NCBI GenBank assembly: GCA_902500055.1
Contig: GCA_902500055.1_4131.1
Reading direction: 5' to 3' (one strand)
Source of the DNA: Escherichia coli
GTDB lineage: Bacteria; Pseudomonadota; Gammaproteobacteria; Enterobacterales; Enterobacteriaceae
DNA: 64,000 nt
The first letter of the stretch is position 1. The number at the start of each line of letters is the position of its first letter. Below the pieces are notes generated by a model. It was not told the DNA's origin. It was given only the letters and a program-made list of their open reading frames with translations, and searched no databases. The position numbers were made by a program, and so were the translations under genes. Below are positions 3-50,670 of the stretch, in pieces.

Positions 3-839
3 AATACTTTCCAACAAGGATATACTGACTGGGCTGTGTATTTCACTGGTATAGATGTTACCCAAATTAAAAAAATGTTATGTGGTTATACAGCATTTAC
101 ATTAATGAAAGACGGAACACTTTATGGAAGAGGATGGAATCGAAGTGGTTCATTAGGTTTAGGACATAAAAATTATGTTTCAGCGTGGACTGTACTTGAC
201 ACTAATGTGGATAATATATTTGGCGGTTACCTTGGCGATACATTGTTTAAGATTAAAAACGATGGAACTGTATATGGTTCAGGTTCAAATAACAGCTTTC
301 AAGTTAAAGCAACATCGGGTGATGCAACCACATTTGTTCCGTTGTTTGATGATATATCTTATGATATAAAATGCAGTTTTGTTTCTGGTGTTGGTTTTGT
401 AATGATAACATCTGATAATAAAATATATGCAACTGGAACTACTTTTGCTGGTAGTGGTGCACATAGTAAAGTTTTTGATGTTGGTTTTACTATAGGTGAT
501 ATGAGTAATATATATCATCCTGATTCGTTGGACTATTCGACTAGTGTTGTATTTTTAATTAATGCAGATACAAACAAACTAATAGCAACTGGGCATACCC
601 CATTTACGGGAAGTAGTTCAAGTTCCCTTCCATATTTTACAGCATTTCAAGAATTCAATTTTACATCGTTCAATTCGAATACACGATATAGTGGGTCTTT
701 ATACTGGAATACATTTTACGAAGGTAATAATGTATGGATGAATGGATATAATCCTAAAAATACGGGTGGAAAGAATTTCTCATTGTGTTCAATACCGTTA
801 GATACTATTATTACTAAGCAAATTGATTTACCTTTTTGA
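3..839 (+). CDS. RCC1-like beta-propeller repeat protein, 5' end cut by the window edge (array paralog 1)
   Basis: The frame is open from nt 3. It has RCC1-type glycine repeats (GWNRSGSLGLGHKN, GSGSNNSFQV) and a C-terminal ...QIDLPF like the other paralogs. Confidence 0.8.
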   Translation, partial: NTFQQGYTDWAVYFTGIDVTQIKKMLCGYTAFTLMKDGTLYGRGWNRSGSLGLGHKNYVSAWTVLDTNVDNIFGGYLGDTLFKIKNDGTVYGSGSNNSFQVKATSGDATTFVPLFDDISYDIKCSFVSGVGFVMITSDNKIYATGTTFAGSGAHSKVFDVGFTIGDMSNIYHPDSLDYSTSVVFLINADTNKLIATGHTPFTGSSSSSLPYFTAFQEFNFTSFNSNTRYSGSLYWNTFYEGNNVWMNGYNPKNTGGKNFSLCSIPLDTIITKQIDLPF

Positions 840-846
840 ATACTAT

Positions 847-911
847 GCCAGTACTCAAGTACTGGCTTTTATTTTTGATTAAATATAGTATAATGAATAA
901 AGGAGGGAAAT
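847..911 (+). promoter_or_regulatory. Intergenic cassette: terminator hairpin, conserved TATAAT box and SD
   Basis: Hairpin gccagtactcaagtactggc (847-866) plus a T-run, then TAAATATAGTATAATGAATAAAGGAGG. TATAAT lies at 889-894 and the ATG at 912. Confidence 0.75.
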
Positions 912-2105
912 ATGTTACCTTTTGCTAGAATGGTTAAATACGGGAATAAACTGCCTATTCCTGATCCAGTTGAGTTCACTGATGTTTTACAGCAACATTA
1001 TACTAATGCTATGTATCTACATAAGCCCACGAATACACTATACGGTTATGGTGGTAATAACTTGAGCCAATTAGGTCTAGGGAATCGATCGGCAGTTTCT
1101 ACTTTTACAGTACTGGCAACGCACTGTGCAGCCTTTTGGTTAGGCGTTCATGGATCATTGATGATTGACTTGGATAATAGAATATATTTCACAGGGAATA
1201 CAGTAGCATTCCCCGATTATGGAGATGCAACTCCAGTTAATGGTTATTTTAGAACATGGACTGATGTTACTGCCGCATTTAACAAAATAAATGTACACGC
1301 TAATTTAATCAAGAGTGTACATATAGGTGAAAGTACTAGAATATTACTACACGATGGAAGAGTCGTTGTTTGTGGTAAAAATGCAAATGCCGAATGTGGA
1401 ACAGGTAACCAAAATCCCATTCCAGTACTAACAGTTGTTACTGGTATGGGTGAAGTTTCTCAATTGGCGTGTTCATTACAGGGTACGCACTATCTCAAAA
1501 CAAATAAAGAAGCATGGTTTTGTGGTAAGGATAACTTTGGTGAAAGTGGTGGTGGGACTAGCTCATACGTTTTTACTAATAAATTAATACGAACCAACGT
1601 CGATTATATAAGTACTACTTATGATGTTACCTGGTGGTTTACTGCCGGTAGGGTGTACTGGAGTGGTAGAAACAATTCTGGACAAGCTGGGAATGGTACT
1701 ACTTCAACTACAAACCAATTAACTACAGTTCAGAATTCACAGGTTATAGTGAATATTAGTGATGGTTTCCTGTGTCCTAGTAATATGGGTAACTCAACAA
1801 TTGGTGCACCTATGGCTCAATACCCATCATATGTCAGGAGTGCAGGCATCAATACATATGGTCAAGAAGGGACGGGAAATACAACAATAATTACTTCGTG
1901 GGGGGCGTTTTCTTTAAGTGCGATACAGGGTGGATATGACAATGTTCTTATGGCATCCAAAGACTGGTCCAGAACAATAATTATAACTAAAGATTATAAA
2001 TTATATGCATGTGGGGGCTTTAACGGTTCAGGTAGTAAATTACCGGATGGTACTTACTTAATTAAAACATTAACATTAATGCCAACGCAGTTATGGCAAT
2101 CATAG
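912..2105 (+). CDS. RCC1-like repeat protein with MLPFARMVKYGN leader (paralog 2)
   Basis: Contains GGNNLSQLGLGNRS, GRNNSGQAGNGTTS and GINTYGQEGTGNT repeats. A strong SD lies upstream. Confidence 0.85.
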   Translation: MLPFARMVKYGNKLPIPDPVEFTDVLQQHYTNAMYLHKPTNTLYGYGGNNLSQLGLGNRSAVSTFTVLATHCAAFWLGVHGSLMIDLDNRIYFTGNTVAFPDYGDATPVNGYFRTWTDVTAAFNKINVHANLIKSVHIGESTRILLHDGRVVVCGKNANAECGTGNQNPIPVLTVVTGMGEVSQLACSLQGTHYLKTNKEAWFCGKDNFGESGGGTSSYVFTNKLIRTNVDYISTTYDVTWWFTAGRVYWSGRNNSGQAGNGTTSTTNQLTTVQNSQVIVNISDGFLCPSNMGNSTIGAPMAQYPSYVRSAGINTYGQEGTGNTTIITSWGAFSLSAIQGGYDNVLMASKDWSRTIIITKDYKLYACGGFNGSGSKLPDGTYLIKTLTLMPTQLWQS

Positions 2106-13573: not shown

Positions 13574-13911
13574 TAGTACCTCGCATCAGGAACTTTAGCA
13601 CGTAACTTATGAACGACTGGGAACAACAACAAACTTACATATGCAATAGTTGAACCCCAATAGAATACTAATACAATTGGTTCACCATTAGAACGGAAAC
13701 CTCTACTAATCATTGAGTAGTGAATAATAGGCATAATCATCGCCATACCAAACCATGCGTGTAATTTTAATTGCAGCATGTTATCAGCGATGAATACTGA
13801 AATTGGTCGTTTAAAGAACCACATCAGAAAGTAGAATCCAGCACTAATAATATAGTACATGGTACTAACTTTCATATACCACGGCAGTAAATCAATAAAG
13901 TACTCCATCAT
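13573..13911 (-). CDS. Small 3-TM membrane protein (TM family)
   Basis: WFFKRP motif after TM1. Tail ...HKLRAKVPDARY. Confidence 0.75.
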   Translation of the reverse strand: MMEYFIDLLPWYMKVSTMYYIISAGFYFLMWFFKRPISVFIADNMLQLKLHAWFGMAMIMPIIHYSMISRGFRSNGEPIVLVFYWGSTIAYVSLLLFPVVHKLRAKVPDARY

Positions 13912-14255
13912 TCCTCCGGTATCTTATTTCGAAGTTCAATCATAACACAACAAATTTTAATGGTCAATATAAAAGTTAAACATATCATCCCAAGTGTGCC
14001 GTAAACTGCGGAAAAAGCTGGTAGTACCTTTCCTGTGAGTGTTGCTACAATACATGCAATCAATGTTGATGCAAACAACGATTGATTAATGGCAGAATTC
14101 ATAAAATCTTCACCATTACGTTTATAGAATTGTCGTTTAAAATACCATCCTAGAAACATAACTACCCAAAATGATACATAAGTTGTTAGAATAATCCCTG
14201 CAAGTGAATGTGCAACTGAACTACTCCTTAAAAACTCAAGATAAGCTTCAAACAT
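13908..14255 (-). CDS. Small 3-TM membrane protein (TM family)
   Basis: WYFKRQ motif, tail ...ELRNKIPEE, ATGA overlap with the neighbour. Confidence 0.75.
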   Translation of the reverse strand: MFEAYLEFLRSSSVAHSLAGIILTTYVSFWVVMFLGWYFKRQFYKRNGEDFMNSAINQSLFASTLIACIVATLTGKVLPAFSAVYGTLGMICLTFILTIKICCVMIELRNKIPEE

Positions 14256-14593
14256 TAGAAGTCTCCGCGAATTTTATCTCTACCATGAATAATGAGATGG
14301 ATTAAGTATACAACTAACCAAATGAACAACCCAAAGAATACAATATATTGTGAGATTGAGTTCAAGTGAGGATTGGCACAATAAATTAAGTGTGCCATAA
14401 GACCAACAATTGCAAACAAACCTTGAACTAGTGTGTAAAGAACTAGTGATGAATTCCTTACTGGATACAGTTTAAAAACAATTTTCTTTTTAAAATACCA
14501 CAGTACTACAACCAGTGCATGATAAAAGAAAAAACCAAACAGATAAATCAAAGTAATACTAATCATTGTATCTGAATTAAAAAACTCAAGCAT
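14255..14593 (-). CDS. Small 3-TM membrane protein (TM family)
   Basis: WYFKKK motif. Tail ...HGRDKIRGDF. Confidence 0.75.
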   Translation of the reverse strand: MLEFFNSDTMISITLIYLFGFFFYHALVVVLWYFKKKIVFKLYPVRNSSLVLYTLVQGLFAIVGLMAHLIYCANPHLNSISQYIVFFGLFIWLVVYLIHLIIHGRDKIRGDF

Positions 14594-15462: not shown

Positions 15463-15494
15463 ATAATAGCAAAAGGGCCGACCTAAGTCAACCC
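15463..15494 (-). promoter_or_regulatory. Composite hairpin element (terminator-like stem with embedded -35 TTGACT) plus TATTAT -10
   Basis: The minus sense reads GGGTTGAC-TTAG-GTCGGCCC followed by TTTTGC. TTGACT (15486-15491), N17, TATTAT (15463-15468). Confidence 0.6.
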
Positions 15495-15504
15495 TTTTTT
15501 TATT

Positions 15505-15864
15505 CTATTCTAACTCACTCATTGTGGTGATAGTTAATCCCATTTCTTCTGCAATGTTGCATAGCAAACCAACTGCATTGCGAAGAATATCAGTGTTATC
15601 CACCGAGAATGATGAGTTTTCATTTACAGTTGAAGACTCAATGTAGTACTCAAAATAACGAGAAGTTGAACGGACAACTTTAACACCTTCATACTTCTGT
15701 AGTTCAGAGTTGATACGCTCGATGAGCGAATCTTCCAGTACTCGATAGTCACCATTCATTCCACGTTTCCATCCATCAGCAGGACGGAAGTAAAACGTCT
15801 TGGTGCGTTGAACAGTACTAATTACCAGTGGATTCAGTTCAGTGATTTCAGATAAAGATGCCAT
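15505..15864 (-). CDS. Hypothetical protein
   Basis: Intact ORF tiling the minus-strand block. I recognise no motif. Confidence 0.7.
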   Translation of the reverse strand: MASLSEITELNPLVISTVQRTKTFYFRPADGWKRGMNGDYRVLEDSLIERINSELQKYEGVKVVRSTSRYFEYYIESSTVNENSSFSVDNTDILRNAVGLLCNIAEEMGLTITTMSELE

Positions 15865-15894
15865 TTCCGATTCCTCATTAGTTGGTGTACATAC

Positions 15895-15923
15895 ATAATA
15901 CAGTTAAATGAGTACGGTGTCAA
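15895..15923 (-). promoter_or_regulatory. Sigma-70-type promoter TTGACA-N17-TATTAT
   Basis: The reverse complement reads TTGACAccgtactcatttaactgTATTAT. Confidence 0.65.
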
Positions 15924-15929
15924 TACCTT

Positions 15930-16199
15930 TTACTCAACAATTCCCAACTTAACAATCTCATACCCATCGAGTTGCCCGTGGGGACACTCAGGTGTTTCAT
16001 AAGATGAACCATCATGGATGTCCTGGCATTGACTTTTGGAATTCTCAAGCAATCGTTGCAGTACTGATACGTCATCAAGAACGTAATACAAGTTAGCATA
16101 TAAGTCCGTTACAATACAGTACTCCAACATGTCAAATGTATCAATCGAAATTTCAACCTTAGCAAATCGTTTCTTTTCTTTATTATACAGTGCGTACAT
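15930..16199 (-). CDS. Hypothetical protein (paralog of 18063..18317)
   Basis: The start was moved to MYALYNKEKK (GGAGA SD 5 nt upstream). It shares the M[FY]AL.NK...YEI..L pattern with 18063..18317. Confidence 0.7.
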   Translation of the reverse strand: MYALYNKEKKRFAKVEISIDTFDMLEYCIVTDLYANLYYVLDDVSVLQRLLENSKSQCQDIHDGSSYETPECPHGQLDGYEIVKLGIVE

Positions 16200-16200
16200 A

Positions 16201-16572
16201 TTAATCTCCATAATCAAGTTTAACCAACTTACCACACAGATACCCAAAGTTTTCTGGCTTCGCATCTGAATAGAAGAAGTCAGTACTTAACTCTGAATCC
16301 AATGCTAAAGCTCACAACTCCACCCAAAATAAACCCCTATGTTGTACTGGCTTACAACGTTTCTGTACAGTTACTAGTCCAGTACATGATGACCACAACG
16401 TAGGGCAGATACCACTATTACTACGCTTGGAGTACTGCATCCACGAACGTTCATTGAGGTTAGCTATCATCCCTGTTAAGAATAGCTTCCAACTTTTAAA
16501 GGTTGGAATCTTGATAGCATATTCCCCAATGAGTATGACAGTTCGTGTTGCACCTTTCAAATCTATATTCAT
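16201..16572 (-). pseudogene. Minimal protein-kinase-like gene interrupted by an in-frame TGA (16312-16314); pseudogene or readthrough
   Basis: The N-terminal part has TRTVILIGEYAIKIP (glycine loop and VAIK-like Lys). After the in-frame TGA the same frame reads ...FFYSDAKPENFGYLCGKLVKLDYGD (catalytic D-x-K-x-x-N and DFG-like DYG). Confidence 0.55.
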
Positions 16573-16583
16573 ATTTTTTTTAA

Positions 16584-16835
16584 TTAGAAGAACACAAACC
16601 AAGTCCAGAATAAATTCCACACTACAAATAAAGACATAGTGGTTTTATGTACAATATCAGCAGTACTGGTCCATCCTCCACCGTGTCCTATTCCATTTAT
16701 GAATAGAACTAAGAACAAGATACCATTTACTACAATAGTACATAGTAAGTACACAAACACATTCCATGCAAGTTCAGGGGATACTAACGTAAATGGTAAA
16801 ACAATTAGTAGTATTAGAACTAATAAAATTTTCAT
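16584..16835 (-). CDS. Small membrane protein
   Basis: 83 aa, almost entirely hydrophobic, with an N-terminal signal/TM segment. Confidence 0.65.
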   Translation of the reverse strand: MKILLVLILLIVLPFTLVSPELAWNVFVYLLCTIVVNGILFLVLFINGIGHGGGWTSTADIVHKTTMSLFVVWNLFWTWFVFF

Positions 16836-17653: not shown

Positions 17654-17681
17654 ATTATACAGTACTGAATGTGTTTGTCAA
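17654..17681 (-). promoter_or_regulatory. Consensus sigma-70 promoter TTGACA-N16-TATAAT
   Basis: The reverse complement reads TTGACAaacacattcagtactgTATAAT. Confidence 0.75.
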
Positions 17682-18326: not shown

Positions 18327-18671
18327 CTATCGATTCGGCATATTCTTTCGTAGTCGCAAGAGAAATTCAACCACTGACCATGTTGTAATGAAGGCAATAT
18401 AAGTTGCAAGGAATCCAGTAAGAATAAATGCAACCAGCGTACTACCATTTGGGGAATCAGTTTTAATGCCGATGACACCATCGGCTACAGTGAAACATGT
18501 AGCCATTAATGTGTAACCTACGTACAACACAAAGAAAAACTCATTCTCCATTGAAGGATAGAAACGGTTAAACACTTTATAAAATTTAAAGTACAGTAGG
18601 ATTATACCAACAAAGGCATAGAATGTAAACAGTGTTGTTATAATATATGAGATTAGGTTCAAATTATACAT
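18327..18671 (-). CDS. Small 3-TM membrane protein (TM family, cluster 2)
   Basis: The start was moved to MYNLNLISY (GGAG SD). YFKFYKVFNRFYP motif and tail ...LRKNMPNR. Confidence 0.75.
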   Translation of the reverse strand: MYNLNLISYIITTLFTFYAFVGIILLYFKFYKVFNRFYPSMENEFFFVLYVGYTLMATCFTVADGVIGIKTDSPNGSTLVAFILTGFLATYIAFITTWSVVEFLLRLRKNMPNR

Positions 18672-18672
18672 A

Positions 18673-19020
18673 TCAACGCTCCGGTAGATTATCACGTAAT
18701 GTTTTAATTCGATGATACATTTTCATACCAATATTACCAAAGATACCATATCCAAGTACTAAAATGTATGCAATAAGCATAGTAATAATTACTATAGTGC
18801 CAAAACTATAATGTACACTACTGATACCCATTGTAGTTTCAACGATTATTTGAGAAACTGAAAGAATCAAAAGTACAACTACAATTGGATGATTTGGGTA
18901 CATTCGGTTGAACAACGTTTTGTACTTAAAGAAGCACAGTACTCCACCGAATAAGAAGTAAACAATGTAAATGCAAGCAACAGCATAGGCAAACATGTTA
19001 GTGTAATAAATCATTTCCAA
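18673..19020 (-). CDS. Small 3-TM membrane protein (TM family, cluster 2)
   Basis: FFKYKTLFNRMYP motif. Tail ...LRDNLPER. Confidence 0.75.
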   Translation of the reverse strand: MEMIYYTNMFAYAVACIYIVYFLFGGVLCFFKYKTLFNRMYPNHPIVVVLLILSVSQIIVETTMGISSVHYSFGTIVIITMLIAYILVLGYGIFGNIGMKMYHRIKTLRDNLPER

Positions 19021-19023
19021 TCC

Positions 19024-19362
19024 TTACTTTTCAGGGATATTAGAACGCCATATATCAATGCGATGAACTAGTCCAAAGAACAACCATACTGGAACGGCAG
19101 CTATCATAACAACAAATGAAAACCCAGTCAACACCGATACCAGATTTAATTCATCAGTACTATACCCACATATCAGTACTTCTAATATTCCCCACGTACA
19201 TGCACAAAACATCAAGAATGAAATTGGGGCATCATAGTAGATACGTTCATATAAAGTAGTATATCGGAAGAATGCAATAATATAGCAAAACATATAATAC
19301 ACCCAAACCAAAGATACTACATAAAATGATACTTTGTTTATTAATTCAAAATATTGTTCCAT
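19024..19362 (-). CDS. Small 3-TM membrane protein (TM family, cluster 2)
   Basis: FFRYTTLYERIYY motif. Tail ...WRSNIPEK. Confidence 0.75.
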   Translation of the reverse strand: MEQYFELINKVSFYVVSLVWVYYMFCYIIAFFRYTTLYERIYYDAPISFLMFCACTWGILEVLICGYSTDELNLVSVLTGFSFVVMIAAVPVWLFFGLVHRIDIWRSNIPEK

Positions 19363-19646: not shown

Positions 19647-19682
19647 GATTTTATCCTTTACCGCAATTTTTATGGTTTATTA

Positions 19683-19711
19683 AGAATACACCAGAACATC
19701 AGTTCTGTCAA
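19683..19711 (-). promoter_or_regulatory. Possible sigma-70 promoter TTGACA-N17-TATTCT
   Basis: The reverse complement reads TTGACAgaactgatgttctggtgTATTCT. The -10 is weak. Confidence 0.4.
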
Positions 19712-20349
19712 TAAAAAACTGGATCTTCTTCAGTAACTGGTATTTCTCTACGTACATCACACGAAAGAGGATCAGTAATGAATACATTGCCATCTTTATC
19801 CATCATCACATTACTTGAATGAATGTCTGGTACAAAACGCCCGTGAAACTCTTTCATGATGTTAGCAGCGACCGTTGCAATAGCAATCTCTTCAGAATTT
19901 CCACGCATATCATTCACTGAAGTAGCGTACTGACCAGCATGTGCATAAGAATATAAATCTCCAATTTTAGTACTAACAAAGTCATCATAATTATTTTTTT
20001 GTTTAATTATAGGATAGTACTTGTCCATCTCATACCATCCAAAGTTTCCTTGTTCGTTGGCACTGTAGATCACTGGAAGAAACTTGGTTCCTGCGTTTTC
20101 AATGCAGTACTTTGCATAAGCACGAAAACCATCCCAGCGTGAAGTGGTTACTTTAAATGCACGTCCAGGATAGTTTTTATGTTCAACTACTACAGAGTAC
20201 ATCCCCATTCCAAGCAAAGTAAGTCCAGCAGCTTTAACTTGTGGAAAGATTACGCGTTCAGCATAAGGAATATCAAACTCCATCGCACAACGAGTTTTTG
20301 ATGGACGCAAAATGTCAATTAAAGTTTTGAATATGTCTTGCTTAGTCAT
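19708..20349 (-). CDS. Protein-kinase-like protein (atypical, short)
   Basis: GMGMYSVVV...GRAFKV (glycine loop and Lys) and FVPDIHSSNVMMDKDGNVFITDP (catalytic D-x-H-x-x-N and a DFG-like motif). The start was set at MTKQD after a GAGGA SD. Confidence 0.6.
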   Translation of the reverse strand: MTKQDIFKTLIDILRPSKTRCAMEFDIPYAERVIFPQVKAAGLTLLGMGMYSVVVEHKNYPGRAFKVTTSRWDGFRAYAKYCIENAGTKFLPVIYSANEQGNFGWYEMDKYYPIIKQKNNYDDFVSTKIGDLYSYAHAGQYATSVNDMRGNSEEIAIATVAANIMKEFHGRFVPDIHSSNVMMDKDGNVFITDPLSCDVRREIPVTEEDPVFY

Positions 20350-20378
20350 TACTTTATCCTCTGTAGTTAATACCAACA

Positions 20379-20409
20379 TCATAACAAAAAAGGCTGACCG
20401 AAGTCAACC
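20379..20409 (-). terminator. UUCG-tetraloop hairpin element GGTTGAC-TTCG-GTCAGCC plus U-run
   Basis: Hairpin at 20392-20409 followed (minus sense) by TTTTTTG. It carries an embedded TTGACT, but the -10 is only TTATGA. Confidence 0.65.
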
Positions 20410-20419
20410 TTTTGTTTTA

Positions 20420-21679
20420 TCATTTACCGTATTTGCTCATGATATCCTTTTCCCAAGGAGTTACATTTCCATTTTCGTAATCACGGAAAGAGTCATCAAG
20501 TGTAGTCAATGCATAATCATATGCCTCACCGGATTCAACATCAATGTCAACAGCACCATTCACTACATCAGTCCACGCTTTTTGTAGTTTACGAGCGTTG
20601 TTACCAACTTTATCTTTAATCCAACTAAGATTTCGGTTTATACTCTTCTTATCAGCACCAGCTTTTTCACCAACATCTGCAACCCATTGCATTAATTTCT
20701 GTAGTTCGTTATGGGATTTTTCAGTCATTTGGCGGTCTTGTGACAGTTCAGCTTCCATGTCATCAATTTCTTCGTCTGAATGAACATCATTCTGTTCTAC
20801 TGCACCTTCTTCATCATCACGCATCAGATAACCATCTCGTGTAACCTTCTCACCATGATCAGCTTCATACTTTTTCATAGTATTGAATGCAGCATCCATT
20901 GCAGTTACAAAACGACTCTTTTCACCTTGTACATAAGATTTAAGTGCATCGTTAACTGCATCAGATACTAATTTAATCTTATCGTCTTTACCTTCCAGAC
21001 GGTTTTCTAACTTAGCTAGTACATTCTTAACTTGTTGAGCATTAGCACGGTCTTCTTTACCAATACTATCAAATGTTTTAAGTACGCTTTCAAGACTTAC
21101 TTCCTCTTGTGCAGGCACATCACCTTGTTGCGTACCTTCAAGTGCACGCATTATAGTACTGAATACTTCAGTTGGTTCAGTACTGGTATTTCCACTCATT
21201 GCATCAAGTACAGCTTGTGCTTTGACTTTTAATTCTTCTTTAGGTACAGATTGCAATTCTTTCACAATACCTTGGATAAGTTGTGGTTTATTAGCAAAAA
21301 TCTTACCTAACTTATCAGACAGTTCTTTGACAGGGTTAACCGCCTTTGGTGCTTCTTGTTTTGGTTCTTCTTTCGCAGGAGCAGACTTTTCTTTTTCTTC
21401 ACGTTCCATATCAGCTAGACGTTGTTTTTGTGTAGCATTAAGAAGTCCCAATGAATTAACATAACGTAGCTTTTCTAGCTCAGTCATGTTCTCAGTACTC
21501 TTAACTTCACCTGCTTCTGCGTTTGCCTTACCAGCAAGTCCCGTTCCTTGGTTTCTGGAACCACGTGAACCTTGTCCTGCTTGATAACTATTTTTGCGAC
21601 GATTTCGGTCGGCCCATTTATCCGAGTGTTGTACTAGTCCACCATTACGATGTTTCATATCCCCATTATCTTGTGGCAT
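20420..21679 (-). CDS. Highly charged, Lys/Glu-rich hypothetical protein
   Basis: 419 aa with a basic Gly/Arg N-terminus. It shares the Y(V/L)(N/D)SLGLL...Q segment with 23024..23407. Confidence 0.75.
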   Translation of the reverse strand: MPQDNGDMKHRNGGLVQHSDKWADRNRRKNSYQAGQGSRGSRNQGTGLAGKANAEAGEVKSTENMTELEKLRYVNSLGLLNATQKQRLADMEREEKEKSAPAKEEPKQEAPKAVNPVKELSDKLGKIFANKPQLIQGIVKELQSVPKEELKVKAQAVLDAMSGNTSTEPTEVFSTIMRALEGTQQGDVPAQEEVSLESVLKTFDSIGKEDRANAQQVKNVLAKLENRLEGKDDKIKLVSDAVNDALKSYVQGEKSRFVTAMDAAFNTMKKYEADHGEKVTRDGYLMRDDEEGAVEQNDVHSDEEIDDMEAELSQDRQMTEKSHNELQKLMQWVADVGEKAGADKKSINRNLSWIKDKVGNNARKLQKAWTDVVNGAVDIDVESGEAYDYALTTLDDSFRDYENGNVTPWEKDIMSKYGK

Positions 21680-50102: not shown

Positions 50103-50121
50103 TATTTTATTTCAAAGTTTG

Positions 50122-50426
50122 TGAGCCATCTGTGAGTCGAACACAGTACCTAACGATTCGTATAATCTATAGTTTTCACTATAGTACGGACTATATCATC
50201 ATCCCATAGGGATGCCGGACGCTAATGATGTATTACACAGTAAGATCGTACTGTACCATCTAGTCTCTGCACCTTCCCAATACGCTTATTGGGCTTGGCT
50301 CAGGATTGTCATCACCATTACGTGTTAAGATTTCCCTGAATTCATCCAGTTTTTCAATCACCATTACTGATGAAAGTCACCATTGTCGATGAGTCGTTTG
50401 CTCTAACCACCGTGAGCTAATGGCCC
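50122..50426 (-). tRNA. tRNA with CAU anticodon (elongator Met or Ile2), split by a group I intron
   Basis: 5' exon at 50389-50426 is GGGCCATTAGCTCACGGTGGTTAGAGCAAACGACTCAT. 3' exon at 50122-50158 is AATCGTTAGGTACTGTGTTCGACTCACAGATGGCTCA. Joined, they give a full cloverleaf with anticodon loop CTCATAA. It lacks the initiator features (1:72 is paired and there is no GGG/CCC in the anticodon stem). Confidence 0.85.
50159..50388 (-). mobile_element. ORF-less group I intron (230 nt) in the tRNA anticodon loop
   Basis: The conserved core elements are read directly. P-like TTCAGGGAAATC (50329-50340), Q-like AATCCTGAGCC (50297-50307), R GCAGAGACTAGA (about 50261-50270), S GATATAGTCC (50188-50197). 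The 5' splice site follows U and the intron ends in G. Confidence 0.85.
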
Positions 50427-50433
50427 GATTTAG

Positions 50434-50670
<237 letters not shown>

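What the first reader, a model, noticed from the sequence alone, without database searches (positions are those of the whole stretch)
16201..16572. Minimal kinase-like gene with an in-frame opal codon between the N-lobe and the catalytic loop
Frame-checked by hand. The sequence reads ...GLFWVEL-TGA-ALALDSELSTDFFYSDAKPENFGYLCGKLVKLDYGD-TAA. The Lys-containing YAIKIP strand lies upstream of the TGA. The catalytic D-x-K-P-E-N and the Mg-binding DYG lie downstream in the same frame. The gene is only functional if UGA is read through.

TGA is a genuine stop elsewhere in the window, including many ATGA-coupled genes. Whole-genome recoding is therefore unlikely. None of the six tRNAs here is a suppressor. 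The options are a recent nonsense pseudogene, leaky or programmed readthrough giving two products, or a suppressor tRNA encoded elsewhere.

A second kinase-like gene with a longer N-terminal part and a similarly short C-terminus (19708..20349) lies 3 kb away. Both end about 5-20 residues after the DFG-like motif, so they lack most of a normal C-lobe.
Basis: partly seen in the sequence, partly recalled or inferred. Interest (0 to 1): 0.5.

Follow-up and report, generated by a model that had tools for sequence, protein, structure and literature searches.

The report
Mini kinase-like phage gene, broken by stop
A 123-codon jumbo-phage gene for an unusually small kinase-like protein carries a one-base change in this isolate that turns a cysteine codon into a stop, which is an ordinary recent knockout and not a recoding signal; the protein family itself is the more interesting part.

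Summary
On the minus strand, 16201..16572 reads as one 123-codon frame with a single TGA at codon 87 (16312-16314). The window comes from an Asteriusvirus (121Q/PBECO4-like jumbo coliphage).

Of 17 close orthologues checked, 16 are intact 123-aa ORFs with TGT (Cys) at codon 87. The gene is under purifying selection (pN/pS about 0.12), and the window differs from phage WPEC3 by only 2 of 372 nt. The TGA is therefore a private, recent TGT>TGA nonsense allele.

No support for recoding was found:
- TGA ends 22 conserved genes in the window.
- No other real gene has an in-frame stop.
- There is no suppressor tRNA.
- There is no significant RNA structure after the UGA.

Four other Asteriusviruses carry different lesions in this gene, so it is dispensable.

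The second gene (19708..20349) is a known T7-kinase homologue.

The parts
16201..16572 (-). Mini protein-kinase-like gene (orthologue of 121Q gp215, phrog_4301): 123 codons plus TAA, interrupted by TGA at codon 87
16312..16314 (-). In-frame opal codon TGA (codon 87). Orthologues have TGT (Cys). The derived base is plus-strand T at 16312, where relatives have A.
   Evidence: The same allele occurs on Logan contig ERR3555814_196, which is 100% identical to the window over 4261 bp.
16315..16572 (-). 86-codon N-terminal ORF. It holds the kinase N-lobe (G7/R10 loop, beta3 Lys21, alphaC Glu41, beta4-5) and the first half of helix 79-92. This is the product expected when UGA terminates.
   Evidence: secondary structure; G7, R10, K21 and E41 invariant in 146/146 family members.
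16201..16311 (-). 36 sense codons plus TAA after the opal codon. They encode the catalytic loop D103-A-K105-P-E-N108 and the DFG-like D120-Y-G, and are made only by readthrough.
   Evidence: The family profile aligns this segment to the HSDLKPANF...IDFG of human TTK (E = 0.004). D120 is invariant.
15930..16199 (-). Downstream 89-aa gene (phrog_8563). Its ATG starts 1 nt after the TAA of the mini-kinase gene, with GGAG inside that gene's 3' end. It may suffer a polar effect from the premature stop. It is not a conserved partner.
   Evidence: The downstream genes of distant family members are unrelated to it.
16584..16835 (-). Upstream 83-aa hydrophobic small protein gene in the same transcription unit. 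It is deleted together with the mini-kinase 5' end in phage TH47.
17654..17681 (-). Perfect sigma-70 consensus promoter (TTGACA-16-TATAAT, 12/12) upstream of the gene block that contains the mini-kinase gene. Suggests host-RNAP (early) transcription.
   Evidence: This is a consensus match only and function was not shown.
15471..15498 (-). Terminator-like hairpin (12 bp stem plus T run) downstream of the block, with an embedded TTGACT -35 box
19708..20349 (-). Second kinase-like gene, 213 aa. It is a T7 protein kinase (gp0.7/T7K) homologue without the shut-off domain. Motifs: GMGMYS...FKV, DIHSSN, ITDPL (the DPV-type replacement of DFG).

Best explanation
The locus is the Asteriusvirus orthologue of 121Q gp215. 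This is a stand-alone 123-aa accessory protein with a drastically shortened protein-kinase-like fold: an N-lobe, one helix, a catalytic loop and a DFG-like DYG, with the chain ending 3 residues after the DFG Asp. It probably lies in a host-RNA-polymerase (early) transcription unit.

In this isolate a single T>A change converted Cys87 (TGT) into TGA. RF2 will therefore terminate most ribosomes after residue 86. The resulting N-lobe fragment lacks D103, K105, N108 and D120 and cannot catalyse phosphotransfer. This is a recent loss-of-function, or strongly hypomorphic, allele of a dispensable gene.

The only route to full-length protein is unprogrammed near-cognate decoding of UGA by host Trp-tRNA(Trp), which runs at a few per cent at most. 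Residue 87 is a variable helix position, so a Trp87 product might still fold.

Shown: the stop, its private and derived status, purifying selection in relatives, the absence of recoding signals, and the kinase-like fold.

Inferred: loss of function, early expression, any catalytic activity of the intact protein, and a possible polar effect on the translationally coupled downstream 89-aa gene.
For: - Sequence and frame.
- Codon 87 is TGT in 16 of 17 close orthologues, all intact 123-aa ORFs. It is Ala in the more distant phage EJP2.
- The window differs from WPEC3 at 2 of 372 nt, one of them the T>A at gene position 261. pN/pS among 15 orthologues is about 0.12.
- Across about 37 kb shared with phage JP4, this is the only real gene with an in-frame stop.
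- 22 TGA stops are conserved with JP4.
- No UCA-anticodon tRNA is present. The 6 tRNAs reported for relative fEgEco12 include no suppressor (PMC13070987).
- The RNA around and after the UGA folds no better than shuffled sequence (z = -0.92, 31 of 200 shuffles as good), and there is no meaningful Rfam match.
- The same allele is present in an independent read-level assembly, Logan ERR3555814, 100% identical over 4261 bp.
- Independent lesions in other Asteriusviruses show the gene is dispensable: a 1-nt deletion in CMSTMSU, two different deletion/fusion alleles in Salmonella phages SD-6_S16 and SD-1_S14, and a 562-bp deletion in TH47.
- K21, E41 and D120 are invariant in 146/146 family members, and position 87 is highly variable.
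- Basal UGA readthrough in E. coli K-12 is about 2% at 37 C and about 4% at 25 C, by Trp-tRNA(Trp) (PMC10570021).
Against: - No read-level data could be inspected. The Logan contig may derive from the same sequencing run as the window, so a systematic error is not formally excluded.
- No expression or proteomic data are available, so some functional full-length protein could still be made by leaky readthrough.
- Five independent lesions among roughly 37 genomes could reflect selection for loss rather than neutral decay.
- The kinase activity of the intact protein is untested. A fold lacking everything after the DFG (no activation segment, no alphaF) may be a nucleotide binder or a pseudokinase.
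Confidence: 0.8

Rival explanations
1. Sequencing or assembly error: the phage really carries TGT (Cys) like its relatives and the gene is intact.
For: The change is a single base, seen in one genome only. No read pile-up could be examined.
Against: An independent assembly of run ERR3555814 (Logan) carries the identical base within a contig that is 100% identical to the window over 4261 bp. No other real gene in about 37 kb shows an in-frame stop relative to JP4, so the sequence is not generally error-prone. The site is not a homopolymer.
Confidence: 0.07
2. Leaky or programmed UGA readthrough used as a feature: the phage makes an abundant 86-aa N-lobe protein plus a small amount of full-length kinase-like protein, as Q-beta does for its A1 protein.
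For: UGA is the leakiest stop in E. coli, at about 2-4% in K-12 (PMC10570021). Residue 87 is a variable position in the family, so Trp would probably be tolerated. The downstream 36 codons are still intact.
Against: The stop is not conserved in any of the 17 close orthologues or in 14 more distant homologues. The flanking sequence matches that of the TGT-bearing relatives, so no readthrough context has evolved. There is no significant downstream structure. The intact downstream codons are explained by how recent the mutation is (2 nt from WPEC3).
Confidence: 0.08
3. UGA is decoded by a dedicated factor: a phage suppressor tRNA encoded outside the window, genome-wide UGA reassignment, or selenocysteine insertion at a Cys/Sec position.
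For: TGA replaces a Cys codon, which superficially resembles a Cys/Sec pair. Only 64 kb of a roughly 350-kb genome was seen.
Against: 22 conserved TGA gene ends argue against reassignment, as does the absence of other in-frame TGAs. All six tRNAs in the window have sense anticodons. The 6 tRNAs reported for relative fEgEco12 include no suppressor. There is no SECIS-like or otherwise significant hairpin after the UGA, and no meaningful Rfam hit. Cys87 is not conserved in the family and lies in a helix, not a redox motif.
Confidence: 0.02

Closest known systems
Phage T7 protein kinase (gp0.7 / T7K) and its jumbophage homologues
   Same: It is a phage-encoded, early-expressed protein-kinase-like enzyme whose kinase domain ends soon after the DFG-equivalent Asp (DPV at residues 213-215 of a 1-242 kinase domain; PMC13645617). 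A true T7K homologue sits 3 kb away in this window (19708..20349). T7K acts by promiscuous phosphorylation that disarms host defences, which is the most plausible functional analogy.
   Different: No detectable sequence relationship exists between the mini family and the T7K-like family (hhalign probability 1.4%). The mini protein is about half the size and lacks the N-terminal three-helix bundle and the inserted helices. It keeps a canonical D-x-K-x-x-N loop and DYG, where T7K homologues have D-x-H-x-x-N and DP(V/L).
Minimal bacterial effector kinases OspG / NleH, and archaeal RNA kinase Ark1/ArkI
   Different: Their solved chains are 160-216 residues, so they are larger than this family. The phage family is typically 115-130 aa and stops about 3 residues after the DFG Asp. 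It shares no sequence-level family with them.
RIO / Bud32 atypical kinases and aminoglycoside phosphotransferases
   Different: They have much larger C-lobes, and no profile match was found at sequence level.
Programmed UGA readthrough in coliphage Q-beta (A1 protein)
   Same: A UGA in an E. coli phage gene would be read at a few per cent by host Trp-tRNA(Trp), giving a short and a long product. (The Q-beta facts rest on my own knowledge. The basal readthrough rate is from PMC10570021.)
   Different: In Q-beta the stop is conserved and the extension is an essential virion component. Here the stop is private to one isolate and all relatives encode a sense codon.
Ordinary nonsense, frameshift or deletion alleles of non-essential phage accessory genes
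   Same: A single-base nonsense change in a gene that other isolates have independently frameshifted or deleted.
   Different: Nothing distinguishes it from this class, apart from the unusual protein family affected.

Membership tests
Protein-kinase-like (ePK-like) fold superfamily | beta3 Lys (VAIK) paired with an alphaC Glu | tested here: met
   K21 (YAIKIP) and E41 are invariant in 146/146 family members. The AF2 model places K21 in strand 18-23 and E41 in helix 28-43.
Protein-kinase-like (ePK-like) fold superfamily | Catalytic loop Asp with downstream Asn (HRD-type D-x-K-x-x-N), and a metal-binding DFG Asp | tested here: met
   D103-A-K105-P-E-N108 and D120-Y-G align to HSDLKPANF...IDFG of TTK (E = 0.004). 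D120 is invariant (146/146). Position 103 is D in 94 and E in 51 of 146 members, K105 is present in 126 of 146, and position 108 is N in 98 and S in 46 of 146.
Protein-kinase-like (ePK-like) fold superfamily | Overall bilobal fold recognisable by structure comparison | tested here: met
Protein-kinase-like (ePK-like) fold superfamily | Gly-rich loop GxGxxG | tested here: inconclusive
   Only one invariant Gly (G7), followed by T9 and R10 (KGATRTV). This is not the canonical motif.
Canonical eukaryotic-type protein kinases (Pfam Pkinase) | Activation segment/APE, alphaF and the GHI helices of the C-lobe, and a score above the family threshold | tested here: not met
   The chain ends 3 residues after the DFG Asp (median tail 3 aa in 146 members). 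No Pfam or NCBIfam family is reached.
Canonical eukaryotic-type protein kinases (Pfam Pkinase) | Phosphotransferase activity | not testable with these tools
   Needs ATP-binding and phosphorylation assays with the intact orthologue (for example 121Q gp215) and K21/D103/D120 mutants.
Programmed stop-codon readthrough | The stop codon is conserved among orthologues | tested here: not met
   TGT in 16 of 17 close orthologues (the 17th is frameshifted), and sense codons in all 14 distant homologues.
Programmed stop-codon readthrough | A stimulatory context or RNA structure, or a dedicated suppressor tRNA | tested here: not met
   Fold z-score is -0.92. No meaningful Rfam match. No UCA-anticodon tRNA in the window. 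The rest of the genome was not seen.
Bacterial selenoprotein gene | A SECIS hairpin immediately 3' of the UGA, at a functionally conserved Cys/Sec position | tested here: not met
   No significant hairpin. Position 87 is variable across the family (E, K, A, C and others).
T7 kinase (gp0.7/T7K) family, for the second gene 19708..20349 | Sequence homology to gene 0.7 kinases, with a DP-type motif replacing DFG | tested here: met
   phrog_15752 at 2.5e-97 and phrog_2828 at 8.8e-17. tblastn hits to annotated 0.7 kinases. An invariant ITDP motif. Kinase fold confirmed. Jumbophage homologues, including G17, are published.
T7 kinase (gp0.7/T7K) family, for the mini gene 16201..16572 | Sequence or profile homology to T7K-like kinases | tested here: not met
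   hhalign of A2 against the 213-aa protein gave probability 0.1%. A3 against A4 gave probability 1.4%.

The most novel reading that the evidence does not exclude
The roughly 120-aa family (phrog_4301) may be a catalytically competent, self-sufficient phosphotransferase. It has over 1,200 clusters at 50% identity in phages and prophages and ends 3 residues after the DFG Asp. If active, it would be the smallest protein-kinase-like enzyme known, used by phages as an early host-takeover or anti-defence factor. Its repeated independent inactivation in Asteriusviruses (the TGA here, one frameshift and three different deletions among about 37 genomes) would then reflect host-dependent counter-selection rather than neutral decay.
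Probability: 0.25. Interest if true: 0.65.

Novelty: new variant of a known kind. Interest (0 to 1): 0.3.

Why it matters
The opal codon matters little. It is a private nonsense allele and should be annotated as a disrupted gene, not as recoding.

The gene it hits matters more. It belongs to a large, unannotated phage family that keeps the nucleotide- and metal-binding residues of protein kinases (Lys21, Glu41, Asp/Glu103, Lys105, Asn/Ser108, Asp120). It discards everything after the DFG motif and measures about 120 aa.

If such a protein phosphorylates anything, it would redefine the minimal kinase unit. It would also add a second, unrelated kinase type to the early arsenal of jumbo phages that already carry a T7-kinase homologue.

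This isolate and the four other lesion-bearing relatives are natural knockouts. They could be compared directly with intact relatives.

Tried and rejected
- Pfam, NCBIfam and PADLOC scans of the mini protein and its neighbours gave no family. Only stray sub-threshold hits of single family members to the kinase-like families ABC1 and PIP49_C appeared.
- A profile of the 14 closest homologues found nothing in PDB sequences. Only the 146-member profile reached TTK.
- I tested for a conserved partner that could supply the missing C-lobe. The genes immediately downstream in six distant loci are mutually unrelated. The Salmonella prophage homologue stands alone between the lysis genes and the terminase Nu1 gene. 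The partner idea was rejected.
- I tested for paralogy between the two kinase-like genes. hhalign found no similarity, so this was rejected.
- I tested for a SECIS or readthrough hairpin and found none that was significant.
- I searched for the TGA allele elsewhere. IMG/VR pattern scans gave 0 hits, but my patterns were too specific to be informative. A metagenome scan gave 7 hits, all unrelated chance matches.
- A paper search for run ERR3555814 found nothing.
- The afdb50 fold library was unavailable.
- Literature searches for a described roughly 120-aa phage kinase found nothing relevant.
- ARAGORN's 'tRNA-Arg(acg)' call for the intron-containing tRNA was rejected after reading the sequence. 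The anticodon is CAU.

Full report
**1. What is in the sequence**

The finding lies on the minus strand. The reverse complement of 16201..16572 reads as one frame of 124 codons with a single internal TGA at codon 87 (plus-strand 'tca' at 16312-16314) and a terminal TAA. YAIKIP lies before the stop. A mechanical ORF list splits the region into a 102-aa GTG-started ORF and a 33-aa TTG ORF. The family alignment and all orthologue annotations start at the ATG at 16572, so the product is 123 aa, not 139 aa.

**2. Where the window comes from**

BLAST against phage genomes shows an Asteriusvirus, that is a 121Q/PBECO4-like jumbo coliphage with a genome of about 350-385 kb. Identity to the best records is 95-98%, and no record is identical.

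**3. The stop is private and recent**

I fetched the orthologous locus from 17 close relatives.
- Sixteen carry an intact 123-aa ORF with TGT (Cys) at codon 87. The seventeenth, CMSTMSU (an UNVERIFIED record), has a 1-nt deletion a few codons upstream.
- The more distant EJP2 has Ala at this position.
- The window copy differs from WPEC3 at 2 of 372 nt and from fEgEco12 at 3. One of those differences is always the T>A at gene position 261 that makes the TGA.
- Among 15 intact orthologues pN/pS is about 0.12, so the gene is maintained by selection in the genus.
- The 86-aa truncated product occurs on exactly one other public contig, the Logan assembly of run ERR3555814. That contig is 100% identical to the window over 4261 bp. 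The base is therefore reproduced by an independent assembler, though possibly from the same reads.

**4. No sign of recoding**

- Translating all JP4 ORFs against the window shows only one real gene with an in-frame stop, and it is this one. The other five hits are 40-49-aa ORFs that do not correspond to any annotated JP4 CDS, being on the opposite strand or not matching the annotated CDS there.
- Of 75 window ORFs with a JP4 orthologue, 23 end in TGA, and 22 of those end at the same place with TGA in JP4. I take the exception to be this gene, but the script did not print its identity.
- ARAGORN finds five tRNAs: Thr-UGU, Asn-GUU, Ser-GCU, Arg-UCU and Gly-UCC.
Reading the exons gives anticodon CAU, not UCA.
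- The paper on relative fEgEco12 lists six tRNAs, none of them a suppressor (PMC13070987).
- The 76 nt around and after the UGA fold no better than shuffles (z = -0.92), and nothing in Rfam matches meaningfully.
- The flanking sequence is the same as in the TGT-bearing relatives, so no readthrough or SECIS signal can have evolved there.

**5. The gene is dispensable**

Besides the frameshift in CMSTMSU, three other Asteriusviruses have different lesions.
- Salmonella phage SD-6_S16 has an internal deletion that removes the Lys/alphaC region and fuses the remainder to the upstream 58-aa gene.
- SD-1_S14 has a different deletion and fusion.
- TH47 has a 562-bp deletion that removes codons 1-43 together with the upstream 83-aa gene.

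**6. What the gene encodes**

No Pfam, NCBIfam or PADLOC family is reached. PHROGs places it in phrog_4301, of unknown function.
- A word-indexed search found 15 homologues of 118-127 aa.
- A profile search over 1.84 billion cluster representatives found 1,206 clusters at E <= 1e-3 and 639 at E <= 1e-10. Most are 110-130 aa.
- In a 146-member alignment G7, R10, K21, E41 and D120 are invariant.
- Position 103 is D in 94 and E in 51 members. K105 is present in 126. Position 108 is N in 98 and S in 46.
- The median tail after D120 is 3 residues. Position 87 is among the most variable.
- AlphaFold2 gives pLDDT 90 and pTM 0.80. The order of elements is beta1-3, alphaC (residues 28-43), beta4-5, a helix (79-92) that contains residue 87, a short helix, then two strands leading to D120.
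- The 146-member profile hits TTK kinase sequences at E = 0.004, aligning DAKPENFG...KLDYG with HSDLKPANF...IDFG.
- Foldseek against BFVD finds many small uncharacterised phage proteins and some annotated viral kinases.

The kinase-fold reading is well supported for both halves. What is unusual is that the family ends at the DFG motif. It has no activation segment and no alphaF-alphaI helices.

**7. Context**

The gene sits in a run of small minus-strand genes, between a perfect sigma-70 consensus promoter (17681..17654) and a terminator-like hairpin (15498..15471). This suggests early, host-RNAP transcription. It is a consensus match only.

The next gene (89 aa, phrog_8563) starts 1 nt after the TAA, so the premature stop may weaken its translation. 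That is an inference. This neighbour is not a conserved partner, because the downstream genes in six distant loci are unrelated. In a Salmonella lambdoid prophage the homologue stands alone between the Rz-type lysis gene and the terminase Nu1 gene, which I read as a typical moron position. Other contexts are arrays of small hypothetical phage genes.

**8. The second kinase-like gene**

The gene at 19708..20349 (213 aa) matches phrog_15752 ('protein kinase; inhibitor of host transcription...') at 2.5e-97. It also matches the gene 0.7 kinases of hundreds of T7-like phages by tblastn.

A 2026 Nature paper already reports T7-kinase homologues in jumbophages, including Asteriusvirus G17. These lack the shut-off domain and carry a DP-type motif in place of DFG (PMC13645617). 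This gene is therefore known, and its short C-terminus is normal for its family.

The two kinase-like families show no profile-profile similarity.

**9. Mechanism and verdict**

The best-supported account (confidence about 0.8) is a recent TGT>TGA nonsense mutation in a non-essential accessory gene. Termination yields an 86-aa N-lobe fragment without the catalytic loop or the metal-binding Asp, so it cannot be catalytic.

E. coli K-12 reads UGA through at about 2% (37 C) to 4% (25 C) via Trp-tRNA(Trp) (PMC10570021). A trace of Trp87 full-length protein is therefore possible, but nothing indicates that this is programmed.

The rivals and their rough probabilities are:
- sequencing error, about 0.07
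- functional readthrough, about 0.08
- suppressor tRNA, reassignment or selenocysteine, about 0.02

**10. Novelty**

The stop codon is ordinary. The family it interrupts is a new, extreme variant of the kinase-like fold. It is widespread in phages, unannotated, and I found no paper describing it. Whether it is an enzyme is open.

Noticed in passing
window 50121..50481 (- strand): A tRNA gene interrupted by a group I intron. Rfam RF00028 hits 50167..50481 at 99 bits. The exons read GGGCCATTAGCTCACGGTGGTTAGAGCAAACGACTCAT | intron | AATCGTTAGGTACTGTGTTCGACTCACAGATGGCTCA, which gives a CAU (Met/Ile2) anticodon with the intron right after it. ARAGORN -i miscalls it as Arg(acg). As far as I know, group I introns in phage tRNA genes are uncommon.
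   Followed up: partly
window 15471..15498 and 20388..20413 (- strand): Two near-identical terminator-like hairpins (AAAAGG(G)TTGACTT..GGTC.GCC(C)TTTT). Each carries a TTGACT -35 box inside the stem, followed 17-18 nt later by a TATTAT or TATGAT box. This looks like a repeated combined terminator/promoter cassette between gene blocks.
   Followed up: no
window 13908..14593 and 18327..19362 (- strand): Runs of back-to-back ORFs of 112-122 aa. All are very hydrophobic and end in similar R-x-N/K-hPE-like tails. They look like tandem paralogues of a small membrane protein. Homology was not tested.
   Followed up: no
window about 15864..15930, compared with L030 (JP4) 19654..20870: The denV (endonuclease V) gene, an adjacent HNH endonuclease and a small ORF lie between the 89-aa and 119-aa genes in JP4. 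121Q also has endonuclease V next to its 89-aa gene. These genes, together with a homing endonuclease gene and one further small ORF (L030 17112..19141) lying beyond the 119-aa gene in JP4, give no tblastn hit anywhere in the window, so this is a mosaic indel.
   Followed up: partly
L024 (SD-6_S16) 552..974; P0006 (SD-1_S14); L032 (TH47): Three different deletions remove the N-lobe part of the mini-kinase gene in other Asteriusviruses. Two of them create in-frame fusions with the upstream 58-aa gene.
   Followed up: yes
P0036 (1073 aa): A protein made of about 16 tandem copies of a 66-aa unit (LLGCLNPQLFYEPFGFLEI...) scores 1e-26 against the mini-kinase profile, through positions 51-101 only. 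It is probably a translated tandem DNA repeat or a compositional artefact. It remains unexplained.
   Followed up: no
window 19708..20382 and homologues P0161-P0187: The precomputed Pfam column lists PF27024.1 for every T7K-like homologue, but the local Pfam copy returned no family for the same protein. That Pfam family appears to be newer than the local library.
   Followed up: no
L014 (CMSTMSU) 152..522: The orthologue in the UNVERIFIED CMSTMSU record is split into 84-aa and 38-aa CDSs by a 1-nt deletion. Both fragments appear as separate entries in BFVD. This may be a sequencing error in that record.
   Followed up: partly
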